Assembly (NCBI GenBank): GCA_000002445.1
Contig: CM000208.1
Span: 128,001-192,000 of the forward strand
Origin: Trypanosoma brucei
Taxonomy: Eukaryota
Direction of reading: 5' to 3'
DNA length: 64,000 nucleotides
Below, in pieces: positions 4,336 to 16,155 of the stretch (position 1 is its first letter; every line of letters begins with the position of its first letter). Made by a program: the position numbers and the translations under genes. The notes beneath the pieces were generated by a model, which made no database searches, had not been told where the DNA came from, and saw only the letters and a program-made list of their open reading frames with translations.

Positions 4336-5296
4336 AGAATCTCCAACAGATCACTCAAGTGAGTGATACATGAGGTAAAACAACAAAGGGGAGGAAGAAG
4401 CACCAGAAGGGAGTTGAATGGAGGAGCGAATGGAGTCCAACATTCATGAATGCGGGACGATATATATATATATATTAATGCATATAAACATGTACGCGTG
4501 AGAGCAGCGCTTGAAGGGAACGAAAGAAATTAAAAAAATTACGGATGTTTGAATGACAGATCCCTTTACTCTGAGAAGGTTCATCATTCAGCAACGCCGT
4601 TTCTTTTCCTTTATCTTCTCTATTCTATGGATTCTCCTGTGCCATGTGGGTTCGCGTTATAGTTGTATGTGTTGTCCCATTCTATTCTCCCTTTTTTTTA
4701 GTCTTAACGGGCACTAAAAGTGAGGGCAGTTAAAAATGTAGGCACGAGCAGGGTGCGGGCGAGGGACTTCCACTAACAAATCGTCACATTTCTCGTTTGT
4801 CTGCATATCTTTCTTTTTCTTGTTTTTTTTGTATTTCACAGGTTGTCACAACAGAAAGCGTTTCGTTGGTGTGTGTGTGTGTGTTTGTGTGTGTGCACGT
4901 TAGCGGTGTTGTTTACTTAGTCCCTATTTCGCTACCATCTATCAGTTTTGGTTCTGTTTTTTTTCTTTTAGTTTTCGTGCAAAAGTCTTTGTTATTGCCT
5001 TTTATTGAAATGTTGCTTTACTGTCAATGTTCCCCGTTCTTCTGCCTTTGTGCTTATCCTATTCTATCGCCGTTGATATGCGGCATGCAGTAGGTTTTCC
5101 TCCTTGAAGAAGGTGAAGGCAAGGGACCATTATTATTTTTTTTTTGTATTGCGGCAGAAGGTTGCGGAAGCTACTGTCAGTTCAACGATACTCAAGCGGT
5201 TACGTGTAAGCAAACAAAGGAGGGTGTTCAGGACACTATAAATTACTTCACAGTTTATTTACCTTTAAATCGTAATTGTCTTCACGTTTGGGTAAA

Positions 5297-6487
5297 ATGC
5301 AGGGCAGTTGGTCGGTTTTGAAGAAGAACTGTTCTAACTTCTTCCCTGGTTTACTCGCCTTTGCCCAACAGACGCAAGAGGCATACGGCATTTGGCTCCG
5401 AATTTATAACCGTCAACAAAAATATGGCCCAACAGACTTCGTTGAGCAGAGCGAAACATTTTCACCCGACTACCATAAACGCTTCCACTCACAAGACAAG
5501 AACATGTGGGTTGACAAGGAGCTCTGCACGGAAGTCTCCCAGAAGGAAGTGGCGCGTCTGATGACGTACAAACTTGACATGTGGCGTATGGCTCATTGCG
5601 CTGGTGCGTTATTGGCCACGGGTGGTTATGCCATTCCCTTCGGACTCTTTTGGCTCGCAAATGATACGTGGGTTCCATCATCTTTTAACCTTACTGGAGA
5701 GGAACTCCGGGCGTGGCGTGAAGCTCAGGACCTTTACCGTTACCGCAGTGCGCCGTCATATCTTACGGATACGAAATGGCACTTCGATTTTCATGCGTAT
5801 CCATGGAATGAAACACAGGAACGTGCCTGGGATGACTTGTTTGAGAAGAATGATGTTCGACGTGACCCTAAAGTGGTACGCCCCGCCGCTGAGATGTATG
5901 ACGGCTTCATCAAGTTTGAGTTGATTCGTCGCAAGTCTCTTCGTCATCTTTGCAGGAGCATGAACATTCCCACCTTTCCCATGCTCGCCCGCCTTTGCAA
6001 TGGTACACGGGTGCGTGACTACTGGAATTTGGCATGGTGTGAAGATTACATGGTCATAACGCAGCGACTGCACGAGTCCATGACGGATGAGGAACTATAT
6101 GACTATGCGTGGCGTCGGTATCTTGCCCCTTATGATAAGAACCTCAATCGAGAACAGCTTATGGAGCGTGTAGAGGATTATTTTGAGTTCCTTGGCCCTG
6201 ACTTCGTTGCCCATGGAAAGGCACCGAATCTTGTCATTTTAACCAATTATGTCCTTGGTTATTATAACGACCCCGCTTATCTGGAGGGAGACATATCGGA
6301 ACTGGACAAAAATGATTACGACCACTTAGCGAGTTGGGGGAAAGATGCGTTTCTGCGCCGACTCGAATTTGAAAACGGGCCTCTAAGAGATCAGGTGGAG
6401 GCGCACACACAACGTTTGTTGGCGGAGCGTGCAGCGATTGCAAAGGGTGATAATGCAGCCGCAGTGGAGGGCCGACACACAGCTTAG
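5297..6487 (+). CDS. Conserved hypothetical protein
   Basis: Long ORF in the + polycistron. The track start 5276 is TTG; the first in-frame ATG is 5297. One hydrophobic segment (AGALLATGGYAIPFGLFWLA). No family recognised. Confidence 0.6.
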   Translation: MQGSWSVLKKNCSNFFPGLLAFAQQTQEAYGIWLRIYNRQQKYGPTDFVEQSETFSPDYHKRFHSQDKNMWVDKELCTEVSQKEVARLMTYKLDMWRMAHCAGALLATGGYAIPFGLFWLANDTWVPSSFNLTGEELRAWREAQDLYRYRSAPSYLTDTKWHFDFHAYPWNETQERAWDDLFEKNDVRRDPKVVRPAAEMYDGFIKFELIRRKSLRHLCRSMNIPTFPMLARLCNGTRVRDYWNLAWCEDYMVITQRLHESMTDEELYDYAWRRYLAPYDKNLNREQLMERVEDYFEFLGPDFVAHGKAPNLVILTNYVLGYYNDPAYLEGDISELDKNDYDHLASWGKDAFLRRLEFENGPLRDQVEAHTQRLLAERAAIAKGDNAAAVEGRHTA

Positions 6488-7140
6488 TTACTGCGATATC
6501 AGCACGTTTTTGTATTGTGTTGTGTTGTTGTGAATTTGAGTGTGGAGTGGACTGTGTAGGAAGAAATAGTAGTAGGTGGTTTCACGCGCACATCAGATTA
6601 GGGAACGTAAAAAAAAAAAAGGAGAGACAGATCTGGGAATGAAAGAAAGGAGGGGGATGTTAGGACGCTTGTGTACCTTTCTCGTATATGAAGTCATGTG
6701 CAAGCTACGCTGATAGAGCAATAACATGGTGACAGAGTGAAAGGCAAAAGGCACTTGCAGAAGGGGGAATTTTTGTTTTCGTATTTGATATTAACTCTCC
6801 ATGTGTTGTCGCAGCGACTGTTTTCGCATATGACATAATTGCGCACATGACAGCATGCATCAGCAGTTTTGGTAGCATCTGCCTCATGTCAATGTTTGAC
6901 AGTCAAAGGTTGAAATCATGTCATGATGGAGGTGGTTCAACACCTCAAGGGGACTTTTTTTTTTTGAATATTTTGGCGATGCCTTCATGACGTTTATGCG
7001 GTGCAAGAAGCAGGTTCCCTTTATTCTTTTTACTTTCCAGATCTTCATCGGAATGTCCAATCGAAGTTTAGTGTGAATGAATGACTTTATATTTGTCTGT
7101 GTCCTTTTTGTTGTTTTGTGGTCTCCCATCTGAAACTCAT

Positions 7141-7232
7141 TTTATTTTACTCTTTCTTTTATCTCATTATGATTTTACTCCCTCTGGAGGACAAAATCAC
7201 GTTTATCACCTCTTTTTTCTTTGCCCATTTAG
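7141..7232 (+). promoter_or_regulatory. Polypyrimidine tract upstream of the CTL gene
   Basis: C/T-rich sequence ttactctttcttttatctc...cctcttttttctttgcccatttagg, about 270 nt upstream of ATG 7497. Confidence 0.35.
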
Positions 7233-7496
7233 GTAGTAGAGGTCACTAGGTCCTAGTTTTCTTTTTTAATTCCACTTCGCCACGTTACTCCAATCAAGCA
7301 AAGAGAAAAGGTAAAAAGAAGGGGAGTGAGTTGAGTCAGACAAGAAAAGAATACGTGGGTCGACGCAGTGTGATAATATAAAGGCGTGAAGCAGGGGGAT
7401 AAAAGTAAAGGAAAAGAGAAGTGGGAACGGTATCCTATTTTCACGCACCGTATACCATAGTGAGTTGCTAACACCGTATTTGATTACTTACGGAAT

Positions 7497-9563
7497 ATGG
7501 GCAATGAACCTGATGAAGCCCGAGTGGGCGGGGTGCCTGAAATGCCAAAGGTATATGAAAAGAAGCGCACCTGCACAGATATTGTGTTCCTGTGCCTTTT
7601 CTTCGTTATGTTGTTGGCTTTCGCTGCTTTAGGCATCATTGCTTTTGTGGACGGCGAAGCGAAGGATTCCCTGAATGGTCGTGACAGAACTGGGCGTTAT
7701 TGTGGTAGCGGCTCTCCTCCAGAGGGTTTCGCTGAAAGTATACCTCAGGGTGCACCTTTTCAAAGTAAAGTCTGGGGTGAGAACAAATATCTGTGGTATC
7801 CGTTCCCATTGAAGCAAACGGCAATGTCGTTGAACCCACTGCTGTACCTCAGTTTGGGTCTGTGCGTGCAGCAGTGCCCAATGGCAAATGAGAGGTTATT
7901 GGAGCGTCTTTTGAAAAACCCCTCTTCTGTAACTGAAGAGGAGAAGAATACCATGAAGGTGTACTCGTATGGAGGCAGTTCAGTTGTGGAGAGTGGCATG
8001 CAACCGGTCAATCATGCGTTTCCGGTTTACCACACGGGGCCCATTTTGCGGCGGTGTCTTCCCACCATCACTCAGCCACCCTCCGTGCGCGATCTATTGA
8101 TGACTTCAGAGTATAGTCAGAGGGTTTACGCATTTGTGTTGAAGGGTGTACTGGAGGTGAAGGCAAGTTGGAAGGTTTTTCTGTGCGCCGCCGCTGCATG
8201 TACGCTCCTGTGCTTCATTTTCTTGTTTTTGGTGCGTTTCCTAATCAGCTTCGTCGTGTGGGCGTCCATTATTGCATGCTTCCTTTTGCTGTTAAGCGGT
8301 GGGTGCATATGCATTCAGCTTTACCTTAACGACGGTCACTTTATGAACCTCCATTTAGACGTCACGAAGTACTCTGTTCTTTTGCTGTGCGTTGCTATTG
8401 GGCTTTGGATCGGGGCGCTGGTGTATGTTTTTGTCATTATTGGAGCATGCCCGAGGATCCGCCTGGTATGCGCCTTAGCGAAAATCGCATCGCGTGTTGT
8501 TGATAATGCGCCATCAACTGTGCTGTTACCGATTCTAATGAACGTGGCGATTTTGTGTCTGCTGGTGTGGAGTATTCTCGTTGCTCTTGGCTTGTACAAT
8601 GCTCGGAGAAAAACTGGGAAGATTTCGTTCGTGCCCGTAACCGACGCTATTGGCATTAATGACGGTTCATTCAAGGGAATCGGTGAGACAAAATTCTACC
8701 AGGGGGTTGTGGAAGGCGTGGAGCACCGCTACGCATTGGTTTACCTCTTATTTGGAGAGTTGTTTGCCTTCCTGTGGTGCGTATCATTCCTCAACGCCGT
8801 GTCCTTTACATCAATTTCTTTCGTCTCGACATTTTGGTATTTTTCGAACCTTAATGGTGGTAAGAAGAGGGTACCATTTTTCGGGGTGCTGAGAGCGTTT
8901 GTATGGACAGTGTTTTATCATGCAGGAACGCTGGCGCTGGGTTCTCTTCTAATTGCTATTCTTCAGATCGTTCGCATATTACTTGTTTATGCGGCAGAAA
9001 AGGCAGAAGAGGCAGTGGACAGACATGACTTAATCCAATGCTTGCACTGTTACTTGCAGTATGCTCTCCTCTGTTTCGAGAACTTTGTGAGTAGTATCAA
9101 TAAGAACATTTACGTCGTTGTTTGTCTGACCTCCGGGAGCTTTTGCACATCAGCCTGCACCGGCCTCTCAGTGCTTAAGGGTCATTCCTCTGATTTGTTC
9201 CTCATCTCGTGGATGGTGTTATGCGTAAAGATTTTGGGAAAACTGTTTGTTACTGTCGGAACTGTCGTGACTTCATATTTACTTTTTAAGCACACAACTT
9301 TGGCACCGGGTGTGGATTCGATGGTAATGCCTCTCATTTTAATTGGTATCGGCGCATATTTCCTCAGCGGTCCCTTTTTTGATGTTTTCGATTCCTCCAC
9401 ACTCGCCCTATTGATTTGTTACTGCTACGATCACCACATCAACCAATCGGTTGGAATATTTTACGTTCCTGCGGAACTTGAGCACCAACTGAGTGACTAC
9501 TCTCAGAAGAAAAAGTTGCGCCGCCTGAAGAACCAACAAGCGGCCGCACATAGGAGAGGTTAA
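7497..9563 (+). CDS. Choline transporter-like protein (SLC44/CTL family, PF04515-type)
   Basis: 688 aa. The N-terminus (KRTCTDIVFLCLFFVMLLAF) matches the CTL N-terminal motif. There are multiple transmembrane segments. The C-terminal block (CFENFVSSINKNIYVVVCLTSGSFCTSAC ... LGKLFVTVGTVVTSYLLF ... IGAYFLSGPFFDVFDSSTLALLICYCYD) aligns with the conserved CTL C-terminal domain. Confidence 0.85.
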   Translation: MGNEPDEARVGGVPEMPKVYEKKRTCTDIVFLCLFFVMLLAFAALGIIAFVDGEAKDSLNGRDRTGRYCGSGSPPEGFAESIPQGAPFQSKVWGENKYLWYPFPLKQTAMSLNPLLYLSLGLCVQQCPMANERLLERLLKNPSSVTEEEKNTMKVYSYGGSSVVESGMQPVNHAFPVYHTGPILRRCLPTITQPPSVRDLLMTSEYSQRVYAFVLKGVLEVKASWKVFLCAAAACTLLCFIFLFLVRFLISFVVWASIIACFLLLLSGGCICIQLYLNDGHFMNLHLDVTKYSVLLLCVAIGLWIGALVYVFVIIGACPRIRLVCALAKIASRVVDNAPSTVLLPILMNVAILCLLVWSILVALGLYNARRKTGKISFVPVTDAIGINDGSFKGIGETKFYQGVVEGVEHRYALVYLLFGELFAFLWCVSFLNAVSFTSISFVSTFWYFSNLNGGKKRVPFFGVLRAFVWTVFYHAGTLALGSLLIAILQIVRILLVYAAEKAEEAVDRHDLIQCLHCYLQYALLCFENFVSSINKNIYVVVCLTSGSFCTSACTGLSVLKGHSSDLFLISWMVLCVKILGKLFVTVGTVVTSYLLFKHTTLAPGVDSMVMPLILIGIGAYFLSGPFFDVFDSSTLALLICYCYDHHINQSVGIFYVPAELEHQLSDYSQKKKLRRLKNQQAAAHRRG

Positions 9564-10021
9564 AATGAAAAAAAAATGAGAGGGTTGTGTGAGTATATTG
9601 ATATGAATTTAATCGTTAAGGCATGTTATGTTGTGTTATATTATTTGCATGCATACTTTGCTCTGCATCATATAAAGGGGTCACGTATTTTGCTGGCTGT
9701 TTTCCATTTTTTTTTTTCCATTTCCATTTCCCTTTTCTTTTTCGCTTTTTTTTCTTCTTCCATTTGGGCGTGCCACTTAATATTTGTTTCCTCTGTTCCT
9801 CCCCTACTGTTTTTCATAATGCTTTTTTTTTGTTGTTTACTCGACCGAATTTTCTTGTATTCCTTCCTTCTGTCCCATCTGTTGCTGCACAATATACTGT
9901 CTCTTTGCTATTTAAAAAAAAAAATCGGTGAGGTGGGGAACCTCCTTTAAAAACGTTTTCGAGCAGATGCGGATTTCTTCTTTTTTTTTTCTTTTGTTAC
10001 AATGTGTTTAATAATTTTTTG

Positions 10022-10046
10022 AAAAACAAACAAACAAACAAACAAA
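10022..10046. repeat. (AAAC)n microsatellite
   Basis: aaacaaacaaacaaacaaacaaaac seen directly. Confidence 0.8.
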
Positions 10047-11385
10047 ACTTACCCTTTTATAACTTCTTCATAACCGCTGCGGTGCTTCTCGGGCTCATAA
10101 GCCATTACTTTCTTTCTCTTTCAGAGTTGATGCTTTCTCTTTCTTTCTTTCTCTTTACCGCATGTAAAGGGAGGGTTAATGCATCCCAATAAGAAAAGTA
10201 AATTTTTTTAGGCTTATGTTTTATGTTTTGTGTTTTCGAAAAATATTTGTATGTTTTATTGGTGTATCAAATAGAGATGACTTTTGTGAAATAGTCGATA
10301 ACGGCAGTGATAACGATAAACGGAATTTTTTTTCTTTTTGACTTGAGGAGTGGTCTCATCCTTTTGGTTGTTATTGACGCTTGTTTTTTTTTCTTTCTTC
10401 CATTTCTTCATTCTTTTTTTTCTTCTTTGTTTTTCATATCCTTTTTTTTGTTTTGCAATTATTTACATTTATTCCTCCCTTCCGTATCTGTGGGGGAACA
10501 TTTTTGTTGTTGCCTAATTTCTTTTTTTTTGTTCCTTTTTCTTAAGTCGTTTCATTTCATAATGTTTTTTTTGCTTTTTTTTTGTGTGTTTGTGTTTGCA
10601 GTACCATATGGTGCTGCATTTATATTTTTATGTGAGTGAGTGTGTGTGTGTGTGTGCCATCAGTGTGTTTTTTTTTTTTTGGGGGGAGGTATTCTGCACA
10701 AAATCGAAAGAAAGGAAGAAAAAACGAAAAGGAAAGAAAAAAAAAAGAATGAAAAAAAATTAAGAAAAAAAACATCTCCAGATATTTTGCAAGCATATGC
10801 GGTGGCTTGCTGAAACGCATCTCTTCAGCATAATAAAGATGAGTTGTGTTGTACCTCACTTTTGTTTCTGTTTTTAAGTTCCTTAAGGCCGCTTACTTTT
10901 TTTGTTTTTGTTTTTGTTTTTGTTTTTTTTGTGGCGGCTTCTTGTCGTCTGCTGATGTTGAATTGTCTTCCGTTTTTTTTTGTTGTTGTATTTTTACTGT
11001 ACCTACATTTGTTGTGTTCACAAATATCAGGTGTTATTTTGTCCCACATTACTATGAAACTCGCTTCTTTATTATTGTTGTTTTTACCATTCAGTTGCTT
11101 CTCTTAAATATATATATATATATATAATTAAAAGAAATATGCGCTGCGTCTCATCTTTTCAATACGTTTTTCCCTCTTTTTTTTCCCCTCTTCCTCTACT
11201 CTCATTTTCCTCCTTCATAGTTTTAATTGTTTCATAGTTTTAAAAGGTGTAGTTTAAGGAAAAGATGTGCACATGTAACAAATGTTAGCGCTTCTGGTGT
11301 CTTTTTTTTTTTAAATTGCCATCATCACTATTATTGTTATAGTCATTATTAATCCTATTATTGCTTACATATTCCCCCCCCCCCC

Positions 11386-11522
11386 CACAAACACACACAC
11401 ACACTTTTTCTGCTACATTCTTTTTTTTTAAAAAAATTCGAGGGTGCGGTTGTACGTGCCACTGGAGGAGGAGGAAAAACAAAAAAAGAATGTAGCAGAA
11501 AAAGTGTGTGTGTGTGTTTGTG
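11386..11522. repeat. Perfect 42-bp inverted repeat (arms 11386-11427 and 11481-11522) with a 53-nt spacer; potential hairpin or cruciform
   Basis: Read directly from the sequence. The left arm is cacaaacacacacacacactttttctgctacattcttttttt. The reverse complement of 11481-11522 is identical. A C13 homopolymer flanks it on the 5' side (11374-11386). Confidence 0.9.
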
Positions 11523-11932
11523 GAAAAGAAAGGATACTGATGAGTGCAAGAAAAAAAAGAGAGAGTTGGTTAAGTGTATTAAATTTTAATTAGTTTTGTT
11601 AATGATCGTGACTGCCTTTATTTTCTTCTTTTTCTTTCTTACACCTAATTTAATGGTGAGTTGTGCTTTACTCTTTTTTTTTTTTGTGAATTTATTCTTA
11701 CCATTTAATGTTTATATGGCATCAGCATTTTATGTGCCTTCAACATAAAAAATGTGATTTTACTCGCTTTATTGTTATCCATTACACCTTTCCCTCACTT
11801 TCTCCAATACTTTATTTTAAAAATTTTTGACAAATAATATATATTTTAAAATTTTTTCTAGTCATTGACAACAGGTTAGCAACAAGATTTCAAAAAAAAA
11901 AGAAAAGAAAAAGAAGTTAAAGATAAATTAAC

Positions 11933-13243
11933 ATGAGTAGTGGTCTCGCTGACTTTGACGGAGATGATGTGCGGGCGCCAGTTGTGGCTGCGCAACCGCA
12001 TATTGGTGTTGGTCTCGGAACCCACAGTGCCGTTGCTCTCGGCGGTTTCCAAGATTTTTGTCTCAAAAGTGAACTCGCCAACGCCATTCGAGAAAACGGC
12101 TTCGAACATCCCAGTGAAGTGCAGCATCAGGCCCTTCCACAAGCCATGCTCGGTGCAGATATCCTTGCACAGGCAAAGTCTGGTATGGGTAAAACAGCCG
12201 TGTTTGTGTTTGCTTTATTGGAGCAAGTGGAAAAACCAACGGATGGGCAGCGGCCCTTCTGTCAAGCCATCGTCATTGCCCATGCACGCGAGTTGGCATA
12301 TCAAATTGAGCAGGAGTTCAAGCGTTTCAACAAATACTTGCCGCATTGTACCACTGGTGTCTTCTTTGGGGGCGTCCCTGAAGACGAGAACATAAAACAA
12401 CTCAAGAAGGAGGTTCCCGCAATAGTGGTGGCCACACCAGGTCGAATTTGTTCCCTCATTGAGCGAAAAGCTCTCGACGTGTCGCGTGTTAAGTGGTTTG
12501 TTGTTGATGAATTCGATCGCTGCCTAGAGGATGTGAAAATGCGTCGCGATGTGCAGACGGCATTCCTTAAGACACCGAAGGAAAAACAGGTGATGATGTT
12601 CTCAGCCACCATGACGGAGGAGCTGCGGAATGTGGCGAAGAAATTTATGTCGAACCCCACTGAAATCTACGTTGACCAGCGTTCCAAGCTTACACTTCAC
12701 GGGTTGGCGCAATATTACATCAATGTGACGGAGGCACAGAAACTTCGTAAGTTGTGCGACATCCTCGACGCTGTTGAGTTCAATCAAGTCATTATATTCA
12801 CTTCCACTGTTGAGCGCTGTGAGGCTCTCAGCCGTCAGCTGCAGGCTCTTAAGTTTCCCTCCAAGGCGATTCACTCTCGCATGGAGCAGGCGGAGCGGTT
12901 GGTTGTGTATGAGAGCTGCAAAACAAACCAAGCTCGTATCATCGTCGCCACAGACATCTTTGGCCGTGGTGTGGATATTGACCGTATTAATCTTGTTGTA
13001 CAGTTTGATATGGCGTCTGATGCTGACTCGTACCTTCATCGTGTTGGTCGTGCTGGTCGCTTTGGTACGAAGGGACTTACGGTGGCATTCCTCACTGAAG
13101 AGGAAAAGGAAATTAAGCGTGAGAACCGTAAATATACTGACCAGGGTATCATGAAGGAAGTGCAGGAGCGATTTGAGATGCAGGTCCAGGAACTTACTGA
13201 CATCGCCACACAACTGAACCAGAGCCAGTATATGAACCAATAG
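11933..13243 (+). CDS. SUB2: ATP-dependent RNA helicase Sub2/UAP56 (DECD-box)
   Basis: 436 aa with ATG start. The sequence is near-collinear with UAP56: FQDFCLKSEL, AKSGMGKTAVFV, VATPGRI, DEFDRCLE (DECD variant), FSAT, HRVGRAGRFGTKG. Confidence 0.9.
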   Translation: MSSGLADFDGDDVRAPVVAAQPHIGVGLGTHSAVALGGFQDFCLKSELANAIRENGFEHPSEVQHQALPQAMLGADILAQAKSGMGKTAVFVFALLEQVEKPTDGQRPFCQAIVIAHARELAYQIEQEFKRFNKYLPHCTTGVFFGGVPEDENIKQLKKEVPAIVVATPGRICSLIERKALDVSRVKWFVVDEFDRCLEDVKMRRDVQTAFLKTPKEKQVMMFSATMTEELRNVAKKFMSNPTEIYVDQRSKLTLHGLAQYYINVTEAQKLRKLCDILDAVEFNQVIIFTSTVERCEALSRQLQALKFPSKAIHSRMEQAERLVVYESCKTNQARIIVATDIFGRGVDIDRINLVVQFDMASDADSYLHRVGRAGRFGTKGLTVAFLTEEEKEIKRENRKYTDQGIMKEVQERFEMQVQELTDIATQLNQSQYMNQ

Positions 13244-14175
13244 AAAGGCGTAGTGAGTGATGGTAGCGTAAATTGGATTTACTGGTTTGGGTAGTGTGGT
13301 GAATTAAACGTGTGGAGAAAATGCGGGATGCGGGTGTTGCGAGGGACGGCATTATGAAAGGAAAATCAAGGAGAGACCAAATGAACAAAGGTGGTGAAAG
13401 TATAGTCACGCTCTGTGGAGGTGAAACTCTACTAATGATGCCGTGTTGAGGAGGAGGAGGGAAGTGGGGAATCATGTGCGCACACGTGTCTTTGCACTCC
13501 GTGCCCCGAAATAGACAAGACAACATGGGACAGCGGTAGTGCGGTGCGTTTCTTCCTCGTTTCACATGGTGGTGCAGAATTTTGTACTTTTTTTTTTTTT
13601 TCAAATATGCTGTCTCGGTCCACACATTTGTTGTTTTCCCCTCCCTTCTCTCCCCCTCTCAGCTCTTCTAACAGTTTGTGACGCTTCCACTTGTGGAGTC
13701 CGATCGCCGTATTTTCTGTTTGCTTGACCGTATTGTTTGGAATCCACTGCGTGGGGAGTTTTTCTTTGCGCGGAAATCCAACCAGTTGCGGTTCCCTCCT
13801 CTGCTTGTGTGGAGCGCAGGAAATGTGTGGGGGGGAAAGGTGAAATTGTGAGGATATAAACGTCGGCAAGACACGTAGCGGCCATCATCTGATGTAAAAT
13901 GGTTGGCGTGTGTTGTGTGATTTCCCACTCGCCCACCAACACATGGGAAAAGAGTGAGTGGATGAATAAATGGAATTTTTCGCAAACTACAAAAAGGTGA
14001 CGAGAGACGGATATATGAAGCAGGAGGGGATAAAAGGGTTTGTAGAGAGAAATTCACTTCACTTTCGGTGACCTCAGTGACGAGAAAGGGAGTAAAAAGG
14101 CATTAGATAGACTGCGCCGCTGACCTTTACACACACCCTTGCTCATGTTCTTCTCACATTCTCTGTCCTGCCCTT

Positions 14176-14211
14176 TTTGTTGTTGTTGTTGTTGTTGTTG
14201 TTGCTGCTGCT
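14176..14211. repeat. (GTT)n(GCT)n trinucleotide microsatellite
   Basis: ttgttgttgttgttgttgttgttgctgctgc seen directly. A (TA)n/(TG)n-rich block follows at 14290-14350. Confidence 0.8.
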
Positions 14212-16155
14212 TCCTTTCGCCTGTTGCTCTTATCCAATCGGTGCGCACCAACATTAACGGATATGAGGCGAGTTGCAACATGCCCTAACGGTCGTGTGTG
14301 TGCATAGATATGCATGTATATATATATATATACACATTTATACATATACGTATATAAACACAACGAAGGAAGGGCTTCAGCTTCAATTTAATCCTTTTTG
14401 TGGGGTTGAGGAGTACCGGCCTTTCAATAAAACATGAAGGAATGTACCGAAAAGGCAAAACGGAATACAAAACGGTAACTCGGAGCTGAGAGGGACGGAG
14501 GAAAGATATAAAACACCTAACTCAGAAAGGAAACTAAACGCCAACAATGAAACGAAGCAAGGACAAGTGAACGAAAGGAGAAAAGAAAAAGGGAGCTGAA
14601 CTAAAATAAAAAAGAAAGTGATAATAATAATAAGGCATTAATAAAAAATGTGAGGGAGTAAATGCTACCTATTGTAGCATCTTGGTGAATGAATCTATGA
14701 AGGGAATGAAATGAGAAAGGGGGAAGAAAAGAAAAAAAAGGTGAAGGGTAATAGCTTGCATGTGCTGTTTGTGATTTAAACGTTTGCGGGGGATAGGAGA
14801 GGAAAAAGAAGAGCTAGGGACTGTTGGAGTATACGGAAGAAAATACATTCAGCGGGGTGCGGGGGAAGAAATAAGACACATTTGATAAAAGCAGTAGCGC
14901 ACGTTTATGGGTTTGCATATGTGTTATATGGAGGCAAGAAGTCTTGGCGAAGAAGCATACGTTTACTCATTAGAACGAAAACTGCTTTGATGTTTCTTCT
15001 TCTTTTTTCCTATTTCCTCACATTCCCACCCAGGTCCTTAAGCATCACGGCATGTATCACCACGTGTCCTTCAACTCGTTTAAATCCTGAGGGATTACTG
15101 CAGCGAGGAGCGGAAGAACTGCGGAATGCACGCAACCGGTGAAAGTAAATAAAGAAAAGGGGCAAAGGGGCAAAATATATGTGAACTTCGACGTAGCTTG
15201 TGACCCCATTACAGGACCTACGTATGTATGTCGCCATACTGGTTACTTAAATGAGGCTTTTTTTTTTTGAGTCGTTCATGCTTTATTTTTATTCATTCCA
15301 TTTTCGCGCCCTTGTTATTGTTATTGTTAACTTCCCACTGGTGCTCTCCTCCCGTCGTACGCCAGATTTCTCTCCATCATTTATGCTTTGGTTTTGGCAT
15401 CCCTCGCCTCATTTCATCCCCCTTTTCTTTCCTTCCTTCCACTTAAATAAATAAATATAAATATATATATATATATGTTTAGGTTAGAGGTTTTGTTTGG
15501 TGCTAATGATCAGCATTTTAACAAGTAATTCCGTGGCAGGAACTAGAGAACATAGGAAAAAAAGGAAAGAAAAATAATGAAGTGGTGTGGGTGTGGAACC
15601 GCTCTGTTCCCCCCTCTTTTTGTTTTTTTATTTTACTCCTCCTCTTCCCAATGCCGGCTGAAGTTTGTGGGAATTTGCGCAACGGAAGGAGGAGGATGAG
15701 GAAGAATGACATATAAGCAGAGGAACTGAAGGGGATGACGTGGGAGGCCGTCACGCCTTGAAGGGATTGGAAGTACCGCCCCTTTTATTATTGGAATTAT
15801 CTGCACAACAAAGAGGATTTTTTTTTAAATTGTTTCCCTCTCTTTTTTCTTGAAGTTCACTCGGAGGGAAGGAGAGTTAGTGAAAAAAAAGGTAATGAAA
15901 ATAATAATAATATAAAATATAACCTTGAGGACAGGTGAGAGAGATGGCTTCTCCCTCCCCACACTACTGCCATATATATATATATATATTTTTTTTTTTG
16001 CATTTTTCGTGCATTTTTCTTTTTTTTCTCAGTTATCTTATCTTTTTTTTTAATATTTGGTTCTCATTTTTATATAAATACGTTAGGATTTGTTACAGTC
16101 CGTTTCGAATTGTTCACGAACATCTGTTAGTTTGCAGGGGGCACACTCGGGCGCC

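What the first reader, a model, noticed from the sequence alone, without database searches (positions are those of the whole stretch)
11386..11522. Perfect 42-bp inverted repeat with a 53-nt loop in the intergenic region upstream of SUB2
The arms 11386-11427 and 11481-11522 are exact reverse complements: (AC)7, T5, a unique 11-mer ctgctacattc, then T7. A C13 homopolymer flanks the 5' side. A perfect 42-bp stem is far longer than chance allows in 64 kb, and the unique 11-mer core rules out simple-repeat self-complementarity. If it is transcribed within the polycistron, in the upstream gene's 3'UTR or the SUB2 5' region, it would form a long dsRNA hairpin. In an RNAi-competent trypanosome, that would be a plausible source of siRNAs or an mRNA-stability element. 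At the DNA level it is a cruciform-capable palindrome and so a possible recombination or replication-pause site.
Basis: seen in the sequence. Interest (0 to 1): 0.55.

Follow-up and report, generated by a model that had tools for sequence, protein, structure and literature searches.

The report
Perfect 43-bp hairpin ending a 3'UTR
A real, far-beyond-chance 43-bp perfect inverted repeat lies at the very end of the 3'UTR of the gene upstream of SUB2 in Trypanosoma brucei, but it occurs only in the T. brucei group and no published data show it makes small RNAs, so it is a modest curiosity.

Summary
The inverted repeat is real. Its arms are 11385-11427 and 11481-11523 (43 nt, 100% complementary, 53-nt spacer), one bp longer than reported. 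Shuffled windows give at most 14-18 nt. The RNA fold is -84.4 kcal/mol (z -12.5).

The window is T. brucei TREU927 chr10 (v4 128001-192000). Published poly(A) mapping (Kolev 2010) puts the predominant poly(A) site of the upstream choline-transporter-like gene (Tb10.70.7750, inferred = Tb927.10.530) at window 11550. That is 27 nt past the hairpin base. The hairpin therefore belongs to that gene's 3'UTR, not to SUB2.

It is present in T. b. gambiense and two T. equiperdum assemblies. There the perfect part is shorter (31 and 35 bp in two of them), because microsatellite and homopolymer lengths differ between the arms without compensation. It is absent from the syntenic spacer of T. vivax, T. conorhini, T. 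grayi and T. theileri.

Published AGO1-bound small-RNA catalogues list nothing at this position. The host mRNA is not unusually unstable (half-life 31 min in bloodstream forms, median 12).

Best reading: a young inverted duplication that forms a 3'-terminal stem-loop and acts, if at all, in cis on the upstream mRNA. siRNA production, a DNA cruciform and a transposon are less likely.

The parts
11385..11427 (+). Left arm of the inverted repeat: C-CACAA-(AC)7-T5-CTGCTACATTC-T7. It is pyrimidine-rich like the rest of the 3'UTR and is the presumed source copy.
   Evidence: composition
11428..11480 (+). 53-nt spacer (loop). It contains its own small stem (about 11437-11467) and a GGAGGAGGAGG tract (11464-11474).
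11481..11523 (+). Right arm, the exact reverse complement of the left arm. It is purine-rich, which is atypical for the sense strand of this UTR, and is the presumed inverted copy.
11374..11386 (+). C13 homopolymer abutting and overlapping the left arm. Its length varies between strains, about C7 to C13.
7497..9563 (+). Coding sequence of the upstream gene: a choline-transporter-like protein (PF04515), old ID Tb10.70.7750, inferred to be Tb927.10.530. The hairpin belongs to its mRNA.
9564..11550 (+). Predominant 3'UTR of the upstream gene (1987 nt). The hairpin occupies its last 166-28 nt.
   Evidence: Kolev 2010 Table S13; coordinate offset of 128000 verified on three genes
11550..11558 (+). 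Predominant poly(A) site: v4 coordinate 139550 = window 11550. It is followed by a genomic A8, so the exact cleavage position is ambiguous within 11550-11558.
11615..11685 (+). Two polypyrimidine tracts (11615-11646 and 11666-11685). The first AG after them is at 11724-11725. This is the inferred trans-splice signal for SUB2, 176 nt from the poly(A) site and within the published 123-178 nt interquartile range.
   Evidence: sequence; Kolev 2010 main text; inference, the splice site was not retrieved
11933..13243 (+). SUB2/UAP56 DEAD-box helicase coding sequence (Tb927.10.540 = Tb10.70.7730), the downstream neighbour. It is not part of the hairpin's transcript.

Best explanation
The repeat is a young inverted duplication restricted to the T. 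brucei group (Trypanozoon), sitting at the very end of the 3'UTR of the choline-transporter-like gene (Tb10.70.7750, inferred = Tb927.10.530).

Origin (inferred): the purine-rich right arm is a reverse-complement copy of the pyrimidine-rich left arm. It was most likely made by a replication template switch or fold-back in low-complexity DNA.

At the RNA level: the repeat is transcribed by Pol II as part of the polycistron and is kept in the predominant mRNA isoform (from published mapping). There it is predicted to fold into a 43-bp perfect stem-loop, with 31 and 35 perfect bp in two other strains. The base of the stem lies 27-35 nt upstream of the poly(A) tail (fold computed here).

Action (inferred): whatever it does, it does in cis on that mRNA. 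It would be a rigid 3'-terminal helix plus an A-rich copy arm that help position the poly(A) site and hinder 3'-to-5' decay. It does not act on SUB2, and it is not a significant siRNA source. It may well be selectively near-neutral.
For: - Real and unique hairpin.
- Coordinates: Kolev 2010 Table S13 values for three consecutive genes all fit window = chr10 v4 minus 128000. The stops fall at 6487, 9563 and 13243.
- Position in the transcript: the predominant poly(A) site of Tb10.70.7750 is 139550 = window 11550, with a 3'UTR of 1987 nt. No separate transcript is listed between the two genes in that table. Neither gene ID was found in any other held supplementary file, including the uncut table of alternative processing sites.
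- Splice-signal geometry: the distance from the poly(A) site to the inferred SUB2 splice site fits the published 123-178 nt range.
- Phylogenetic range: present in T. b. gambiense, T. b. equiperdum and T. equiperdum. No perfect inverted repeat of 12 nt or more in the syntenic spacer of T. vivax, T. conorhini or T. grayi, and only a 13-nt T-run pairing in T. theileri.
- Direction of copying: the sense strand of this UTR is T-rich throughout, and the right arm is a local A/G-rich exception.
- Host mRNA is not destabilised: 31 min half-life in bloodstream forms (median 12) and 20.5 min in procyclics (median 20) (Fadda 2014).
- No siRNA locus is reported here.
Against: - No functional data exist for this element.
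- The averaged poly(A) position (window 11413, dispersion 144) lies upstream of the predominant site. A sizeable fraction of transcripts therefore end before or inside the hairpin and lack it.
- The predominant site abuts a genomic A8, so some internal priming cannot be excluded.
- The outer stem is not maintained between strains. The (AC)n of the left arm is 6-14 nt shorter in other strains, with no matching change in the right arm. This argues against selection for the full-length helix.
- There are zero substitutions in the arm cores, but only about 2-3 would be expected across the tree. This neither supports nor excludes constraint.
- The template-switch origin cannot be reconstructed without a close outgroup; T. 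congolense was not retrievable.
Confidence: 0.55

Rival explanations
1. Endogenous hairpin-RNA locus. The 43-bp perfect duplex is diced by TbDCL2 or TbDCL1 into 24-26-nt siRNAs loaded on TbAGO1. Dicing would cut the poly(A) tail off the host mRNA (self-regulation). The siRNAs might also target (GU)n- or (AC)n-containing transcripts.
For: - T. brucei is RNAi-competent, and its long inverted repeats do yield siRNAs (Tschudi 2012).
- The duplex is perfect, longer than one siRNA, and sits in a Pol II transcript.
- The host mRNA is about 8-fold lower in procyclic than in bloodstream forms.
- 22% of mapped small-RNA reads in that study were left unassigned, and only inverted repeats of 422 bp or more were surveyed. 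Low-level production is therefore not excluded.
- In Chlamydomonas, UTR hairpins of coding mRNAs are Dicer substrates (PMC4817775, abstract only).
Against: - It is not among the catalogued siRNA loci. The 'miscellaneous' list goes down to 84 reads and has no chr10 entry.
- Neither small-RNA study found miRNA-like hairpin products.
- The host mRNA half-life is 2.5 times the median in bloodstream forms and at the median in procyclics, not what efficient dicing predicts.
- The Rfam miRNA hits are all below the gathering scores and hit both strands, so they only reflect a generic hairpin.
- Not conserved outside the T. brucei group.
Confidence: 0.1
2. DNA-level element. The palindrome extrudes as a cruciform or forms a lagging-strand hairpin, and acts as a replication pause or recombination hotspot.
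For: - The DNA fold is -51.6 kcal/mol, z = -12.
- Strain-to-strain indels cluster in and next to the arms: the C-run, (AC)n, (GT)n and the T/A runs.
Against: - The indels are all in microsatellite or homopolymer tracts. Such tracts are equally unstable elsewhere in this spacer, for example the 25-nt (TTTTTG)n deletion at 10898-10922.
- A 53-nt spacer strongly disfavours cruciform extrusion and palindrome fragility (established knowledge, not tested here).
- The repeat has persisted in four lineages without deletion.
- The locus is inside a unidirectional polycistron, not at a strand-switch region. This is inferred from the + strand genes.
Confidence: 0.07
3. A 139-bp miniature inverted-repeat transposable element (MITE), or the footprint of a dispersed repeat with 43-bp terminal inverted repeats.
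For: It has the form of terminal inverted repeats around a short unique core, and it is lineage-specific.
Against: - No target-site duplication. The left flank ends in ...CCCC and the right flank starts AAAAG....
- No second copy in the 64-kb window, in 13 fetched loci, or in JGI metagenome contigs.
- The outer arm ends are ordinary microsatellite.
- To my knowledge no DNA transposons are described in T. brucei (from memory, not tested).
Confidence: 0.03
4. Pure passenger. The repeat is a neutral mutational accident with no measurable consequence for RNA or DNA, for example because the helix is unwound or never forms in vivo.
For: - Restricted to one young clade.
- Outer stem length drifts freely between strains.
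- It lies in a fast-evolving, low-complexity spacer with about 2.5% substitutions plus many indels between subspecies.
Against: A helix of -84 kcal/mol lying 27 nt from the 3' end is physically hard to ignore for exonucleases and the processing machinery (inference). A core of at least 31 perfect bp is intact in all four genomes.
Confidence: 0.25

Closest known systems
Long inverted repeats IR1-IR7 of T. brucei that produce siRNAs (Tschudi et al. 2012, PMC3447711)
   Same: Same organism. Essentially perfect arm identity. Transcribed by Pol II. [quoted passage not shown]
   Different: Those arms are 422-10,011 bp, against 43 bp here. Their siRNA output was demonstrated, and none is reported here. 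The chr10 member (IR6) lies at 467-478 kb, not at about 139.4 kb.
Dicer-processed hairpins in UTRs of coding mRNAs (Chlamydomonas DCL3 miRNAs, Valli et al. 2016, PMC4817775; Drosophila hpRNAs)
   Same: A hairpin embedded in the UTR of a protein-coding mRNA in an RNAi-competent unicellular eukaryote. Processing would inactivate the host mRNA.
   Different: No small RNAs are known from this locus. The stem is perfect, with a large 53-nt loop. No miRNA-like RNAs have been found in T. brucei. I read only the abstract of the Chlamydomonas paper.
3'-terminal protective stem-loops (chloroplast and bacterial 3' inverted repeats, histone mRNA stem-loop)
   Same: A stable helix within about 30 nt of the mature 3' end, a geometry that blocks 3'-to-5' exonucleases.
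   Different: Those RNAs are not polyadenylated for stability and their stem-loops are conserved and protein-bound. Here the mRNA is polyadenylated, the element is clade-specific, and no binding protein is known.
Template-switch (fold-back) mutations that create perfect short inverted repeats
   Same: Perfect arms and a short spacer. One arm is out of compositional context. Recent, lineage-specific origin in low-complexity DNA.
   Different: The ancestral state could not be reconstructed, so this is a mechanistic inference and not a demonstrated event.

Membership tests
T. brucei siRNA-producing inverted repeats (Tschudi 2012) | Near-identical inverted arms | tested here: met
   43/43 complementary
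T. brucei siRNA-producing inverted repeats (Tschudi 2012) | Arm length of hundreds to thousands of bp (422-10,011 bp) | tested here: not met
   Arms are 43 bp, against Table 3 of the paper
T. brucei siRNA-producing inverted repeats (Tschudi 2012) | AGO1-bound 22-25-nt small RNAs from the arms, dependent on Dicer | not testable with these tools
The published lists contain no locus at chr10 about 139.4 kb.
microRNA precursors (Rfam families) | Score at or above the family gathering threshold, on one strand | tested here: not met
   Best hit is 50.8 bits against a threshold of 85 (MIR530). All ten miRNA-family hits are below their thresholds, and they fall on both strands.
MITE / TIR transposon | Target-site duplication flanking the terminal inverted repeats | tested here: not met
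   Flanks are ...TATTCCCCCCCCCCC and AAAAGAAAGG..., with no direct repeat
MITE / TIR transposon | Multiple dispersed copies in the genome | tested here: inconclusive
   No other copy in the 64-kb window, the fetched loci or the metagenome contigs. The whole T. brucei genome could not be searched.
3'UTR cis-element of the upstream mRNA | Lies between the stop codon and the mapped poly(A) site of that gene | tested here: met
   Stop at 9563, hairpin at 11385-11523, predominant poly(A) site at 11550. From Kolev 2010 Table S13, with the offset checked on three genes.
3'UTR cis-element of the upstream mRNA | Conserved in orthologous 3'UTRs | tested here: not met
   Kept only within the T. brucei group. 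Absent in T. vivax, T. conorhini, T. grayi and T. theileri. T. congolense was unavailable.
3'UTR cis-element of the upstream mRNA | Compensatory change that maintains pairing | tested here: inconclusive
   No substitutions in the arm cores, with about 2-3 expected across the tree. Length changes in (AC)n and (GT)n are not compensated.
Cruciform-forming or fragile palindrome | Short or no spacer between the arms | tested here: not met
   Spacer is 53 nt. The spacer requirement itself comes from established knowledge.
Template-switch inverted duplication | Ancestral sequence lacks one arm, and the copy replaces or is inserted next to its source | not testable with these tools
   No alignable outgroup. 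The spacers of other species are unalignable and T. congolense is missing. Only compositional asymmetry supports it.

The most novel reading that the evidence does not exclude
The hairpin is a genuine endogenous Dicer substrate: the first short, mRNA-embedded hpRNA or miRNA-like locus in T. brucei. Stage-dependent dicing would remove the poly(A) tail from the choline-transporter-like mRNA. This would contribute to its roughly 8-fold lower level in procyclic forms and release siRNAs rich in (GU)n/(AC)n.
Probability: 0.07. Interest if true: 0.65.

Novelty: new member of a known kind. Interest (0 to 1): 0.3.

Why it matters
If the helix forms in vivo, this is a natural test case. It would show how an RNAi-competent trypanosome treats a short, perfect, mRNA-embedded dsRNA: does it tolerate it, use it to set the 3' end, or dice it? 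The host mRNA is not unstable and no siRNAs are catalogued. Taken at face value, that suggests 43 bp is below the effective threshold of the trypanosome Dicers. This would be useful for designing RNAi hairpins and for understanding self/non-self dsRNA discrimination. Beyond that, it is one clade-specific structure in one 3'UTR with no demonstrated phenotype.

Tried and rejected
- Rfam scan of the spacer: only sub-threshold, two-stranded hits to assorted miRNA precursor models. These reflect a generic long hairpin, not family membership.
- Looked for the spliced leader at the 5' ends of three short Logan contigs carrying SUB2. They simply break at the A-run upstream of the ATG and are uninformative.
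- SUB2 splice-acceptor site: Kolev Tables S4 and S12 are truncated in the held copy. The Nilsson 2010 supplements do not contain the genes. The Siegel 2010 supplements are not held. The splice site is therefore inferred from sequence only.
- T. congolense, the closest outgroup: neither its SUB2 nor its choline-transporter-like orthologue has a contig in the collection.
- Exact look-up of the TREU927 choline-transporter-like protein, to find RNA-seq contigs running into the 3'UTR: not on record.
- Metagenome scan for the arm core: 0 hits.
- A GC-rich imperfect structure at a similar distance upstream of SUB2 in T. conorhini (z = -3.0). Rejected as a homologue because there is no sequence similarity and the score is not significant after scanning about 75 windows. 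The best T. grayi window has z = -0.13.
- Literature search for short hairpin-derived small RNAs in T. brucei after 2013: nothing relevant.

Full report
**1. The observation**

The sequence and the repeat finder show a perfect inverted repeat. The arms are 11385-11427 and 11481-11523, 43 nt each, 100% complementary, with 53 nt between them.

The left arm reads C-CACAA-(AC)7-T5-CTGCTACATTC-T7. The C13 tract is 11374-11386 and overlaps the arm by two bases.

The 22-nt core (CTTTTTCTGCTACATTCTTTTT) occurs only in the two arms, even with 3 mismatches allowed; none is expected by chance. Across the whole window every other inverted repeat is AT- or homopolymer-based. The second longest perfect inverted repeat with a loop of 200 nt or less is an 18-nt AT repeat. 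Dinucleotide-preserving shuffles of the window never exceed 14 nt. Shuffles confined to 150-nt blocks, which keep the local low complexity, never exceed 18 nt.

As RNA the 171-nt segment folds at -84.4 kcal/mol (z = -12.5). As DNA it folds at -51.6 kcal/mol (z = -12.1).

**2. Where it is**

- The downstream ORF (11933-13243) is a DEAD-box helicase. It is identical to T. brucei EAN77484.1 / Q38CI6, which is Sub2, Tb927.10.540.
- The upstream ORF (7497-9563) carries the Pfam choline-transporter domain PF04515.
- Kolev et al. 2010 (PMC2936537), Table S13, lists for Tb10.70.7730 (annotated as an ATP-dependent DEAD/H helicase) a predominant poly(A) site at 143913 with a 3'UTR of 2670 nt.
- For Tb10.70.7750 it lists a predominant site at 139550, a 3'UTR of 1987 nt, an averaged site of 139413 and a dispersion of 143.58.
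- For Tb10.70.7760 it lists a site at 135132 with a 3'UTR of 645 nt.
- Subtracting each UTR length gives stop codons at 141243, 137563 and 134487. With one offset of 128000 these equal the ORF ends in the window: 13243, 9563 and 6487.

The window is therefore TREU927 chr10 (v4) 128001-192000. The predominant poly(A) site of the choline-transporter-like gene is window 11550. A genomic A8 follows it, so cleavage is ambiguous within 11550-11558.

The hairpin base (11523) is thus 27-35 nt upstream of the poly(A) tail of the upstream gene's predominant mRNA. That table lists no separate transcript between the two genes. Neither gene ID was found in any other held supplementary file, including the uncut table of alternative processing sites.

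Downstream of the poly(A) site lie two polypyrimidine tracts (11615-11646 and 11666-11685). The first AG after them is at 11724-11725, 176 nt from the poly(A) site. This falls inside the 123-178 nt interquartile range that Kolev et al. report for the distance between a poly(A) site and the next splice site. The SUB2 splice site itself could not be retrieved, so this last step is an inference.

Conclusion: the hairpin belongs to the 3'UTR of the upstream gene, not to SUB2.

One caveat applies. The averaged poly(A) position is 137 nt upstream of the predominant one. A substantial minority of transcripts therefore end before or within the hairpin.

**3. Gene identity and expression**

In Fadda et al. 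2014 (PMC4285177), Tb927.10.520 is an ATP-synthase subunit with a coding sequence of 1191 nt. That matches the 396-residue gene called in front of the choline-transporter-like gene. Tb927.10.530 is therefore, by order, the choline-transporter-like gene. This assignment is an inference.

Published values for the Tb927.10.530 mRNA:

| Life-cycle stage | mRNA copies per cell | Half-life | Median half-life of all mRNAs |
|---|---|---|---|
| Bloodstream | 2.2 | 31 min | 12 min |
| Procyclic | 0.29 | 20.5 min | 20 min |

The mRNA is not unusually unstable. This is not what efficient dicing of its 3' end would predict. It is compatible with, but does not prove, a protective 3' structure.

**4. Conservation**

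The repeat is present at the orthologous position in T. b. gambiense DAL972, in a T. b. equiperdum assembly (GCA_003543875) and in T. equiperdum (GCA_001457755).

The unique core and the inner stem are identical in all of them. The outer stem is not. The left-arm (AC)n is 6-14 nt shorter, the right-arm (GT)n is 4 nt longer in one strain, the C-run ranges from about 7 to 13, and the T9A7 at the loop border becomes T12A3 or T11A3. Perfect stems are 43 bp (TREU927), 35 bp (gambiense) and 31 bp (T. b. equiperdum). The folds of all three other assemblies remain strong, -66 to -75 kcal/mol.

The spacer differs by about 2.5% substitutions between TREU927 and the other two aligned strains, a figure inflated by low-complexity misalignment. 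Only about 2-3 substitutions would be expected in the 86 arm positions across the tree. Observing none is therefore not significant. The uncompensated length changes argue against selection for the full 43-bp helix.

The choline-transporter-SUB2 gene order is kept in T. vivax, T. conorhini, T. grayi and T. theileri. Their spacers contain no perfect inverted repeat of 12 nt or more, apart from a 13-nt T-run pairing in T. theileri. They also contain no outlier hairpin. T. cruzi lacks the transporter gene at this locus. T. congolense could not be retrieved. The element is therefore specific to the T. brucei group as far as can be tested.

**5. What it is not**

- **Not a known RNA family.** The Rfam hits are sub-threshold matches to unrelated miRNA precursor families on both strands, so they reflect a generic hairpin.
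- **Probably not a transposon.** There is no target-site duplication. No further copy exists in the window, the fetched loci or JGI metagenomes. A MITE is unlikely, although the whole T. brucei genome could not be searched.
- **Not a catalogued siRNA locus.** Tschudi et al. 2012 lists seven inverted repeats of 422-10,011 bp; the chr10 one is at 467-478 kb. Its 'miscellaneous' list has no chr10 entry and includes loci with as few as 84 reads. It reports no miRNAs. Zheng et al. 2013 likewise found no typical miRNAs. This is evidence against a notable siRNA source but is not decisive: 22% of mapped reads were unassigned and short inverted repeats were not surveyed.
- **Probably not a cruciform.** The 53-nt spacer disfavours extrusion (established knowledge, not tested here). 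The strain-to-strain indels are of the ordinary microsatellite kind seen elsewhere in the same spacer.

**6. Most likely mechanism**

Shown here or taken from published mapping: the repeat is a real, unique, perfect inverted repeat. It lies in the distal 3'UTR of the upstream gene and ends 27 nt before the main poly(A) site. It is restricted to the T. brucei group, and its outer stem drifts in length between strains.

Inferred:
- The sense strand of this UTR is T-rich throughout, while the right arm and its surroundings are a local A/G-rich exception. The right arm is therefore probably the inverted copy of the left arm, created by a replication template switch or fold-back in low-complexity DNA.
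- In the mRNA the helix would be a rigid 3'-terminal stem-loop. Its plausible effects are in cis. The A-rich copy arm and the helix would help position the poly(A) site, and the helix would hinder 3'-to-5' decay after deadenylation.

I give this package 0.55. About half of that weight allows the cis effect to be small and unselected. The separately listed pure-passenger reading, with no effect at all, gets 0.25. The other rivals are an siRNA/hpRNA source (0.10), a DNA-level pause or recombination site (0.07) and a MITE (0.03).

**7. Verdict**

The element is transcribed and lies in a UTR, but it is the upstream gene's UTR. No small-RNA evidence exists, and there is no conservation beyond a very young clade.

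It is a new member of a known kind: a hairpin-forming inverted repeat in a 3'UTR. Interest is modest (0.3). Its main value is as a natural probe of how an RNAi-competent trypanosome handles a short, perfect, mRNA-embedded duplex.

Noticed in passing
L009 and L010 (T. cruzi) compared with window 5276-13243: T. brucei, T. vivax, T. conorhini, T. grayi and T. theileri share the gene order of a roughly 396-aa gene (ATP-synthase subunit in T. brucei), a choline-transporter-like gene, then SUB2. In T. cruzi the transporter-like gene is missing and the 395-aa gene sits directly upstream of SUB2.
   Followed up: partly
window 7497-9563: The choline-transporter-like protein evolves very fast. It is 39-46% identical between T. 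brucei and T. congolense, T. grayi or T. conorhini. The neighbouring SUB2 is 89% identical to its T. conorhini orthologue.
   Followed up: no
window 10898-10922: A perfect (TTTTTG)4.8 tandem repeat in TREU927. A 25-nt block of it is absent from T. b. gambiense and T. b. equiperdum. This is ordinary microsatellite instability in the same 3'UTR.
   Followed up: partly
window 10631-10656: A (TG)13 tract about 730 nt upstream in the same 3'UTR is 90-94% complementary to the (CA)n of the hairpin's left arm (pairs I9 and I16). It could compete for pairing with the outer stem.
   Followed up: no
window 11430-11437: At the loop border, TREU927 and one T. equiperdum assembly have T9A7. T. b. gambiense and T. 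b. equiperdum have T11-12A3. This is a clustered multi-base A-to-T change that extends the inner stem by several A-U pairs in those strains.
   Followed up: partly
window 11464-11474 and 11374-11386: The loop carries GGAGGAGGAGG, a possible two-tetrad G-quadruplex or GGA-repeat motif. A length-polymorphic C13 run abuts the left arm. The minimum-free-energy fold does not pair the two.
   Followed up: no
window 11166-11220: A strong polypyrimidine tract followed by AG (11219-11220) lies about 170 nt upstream of the hairpin. The averaged poly(A) position is 137 nt upstream of the predominant one. Together these hint at an upstream alternative processing site that would give hairpin-less isoforms.
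   Followed up: no
L011:4500-4700 (T. conorhini): A GC-rich imperfect hairpin (-83.5 kcal/mol, z = -3.0) sits at a similar distance upstream of SUB2. It has no sequence similarity to the T. brucei element and is not significant after multiple windows.
   Followed up: yes
window 13244-15913: SUB2 itself has a long and heterogeneous 3'UTR according to Kolev 2010: predominant length 2670 nt, average 2266 nt, dispersion 404.
   Followed up: no
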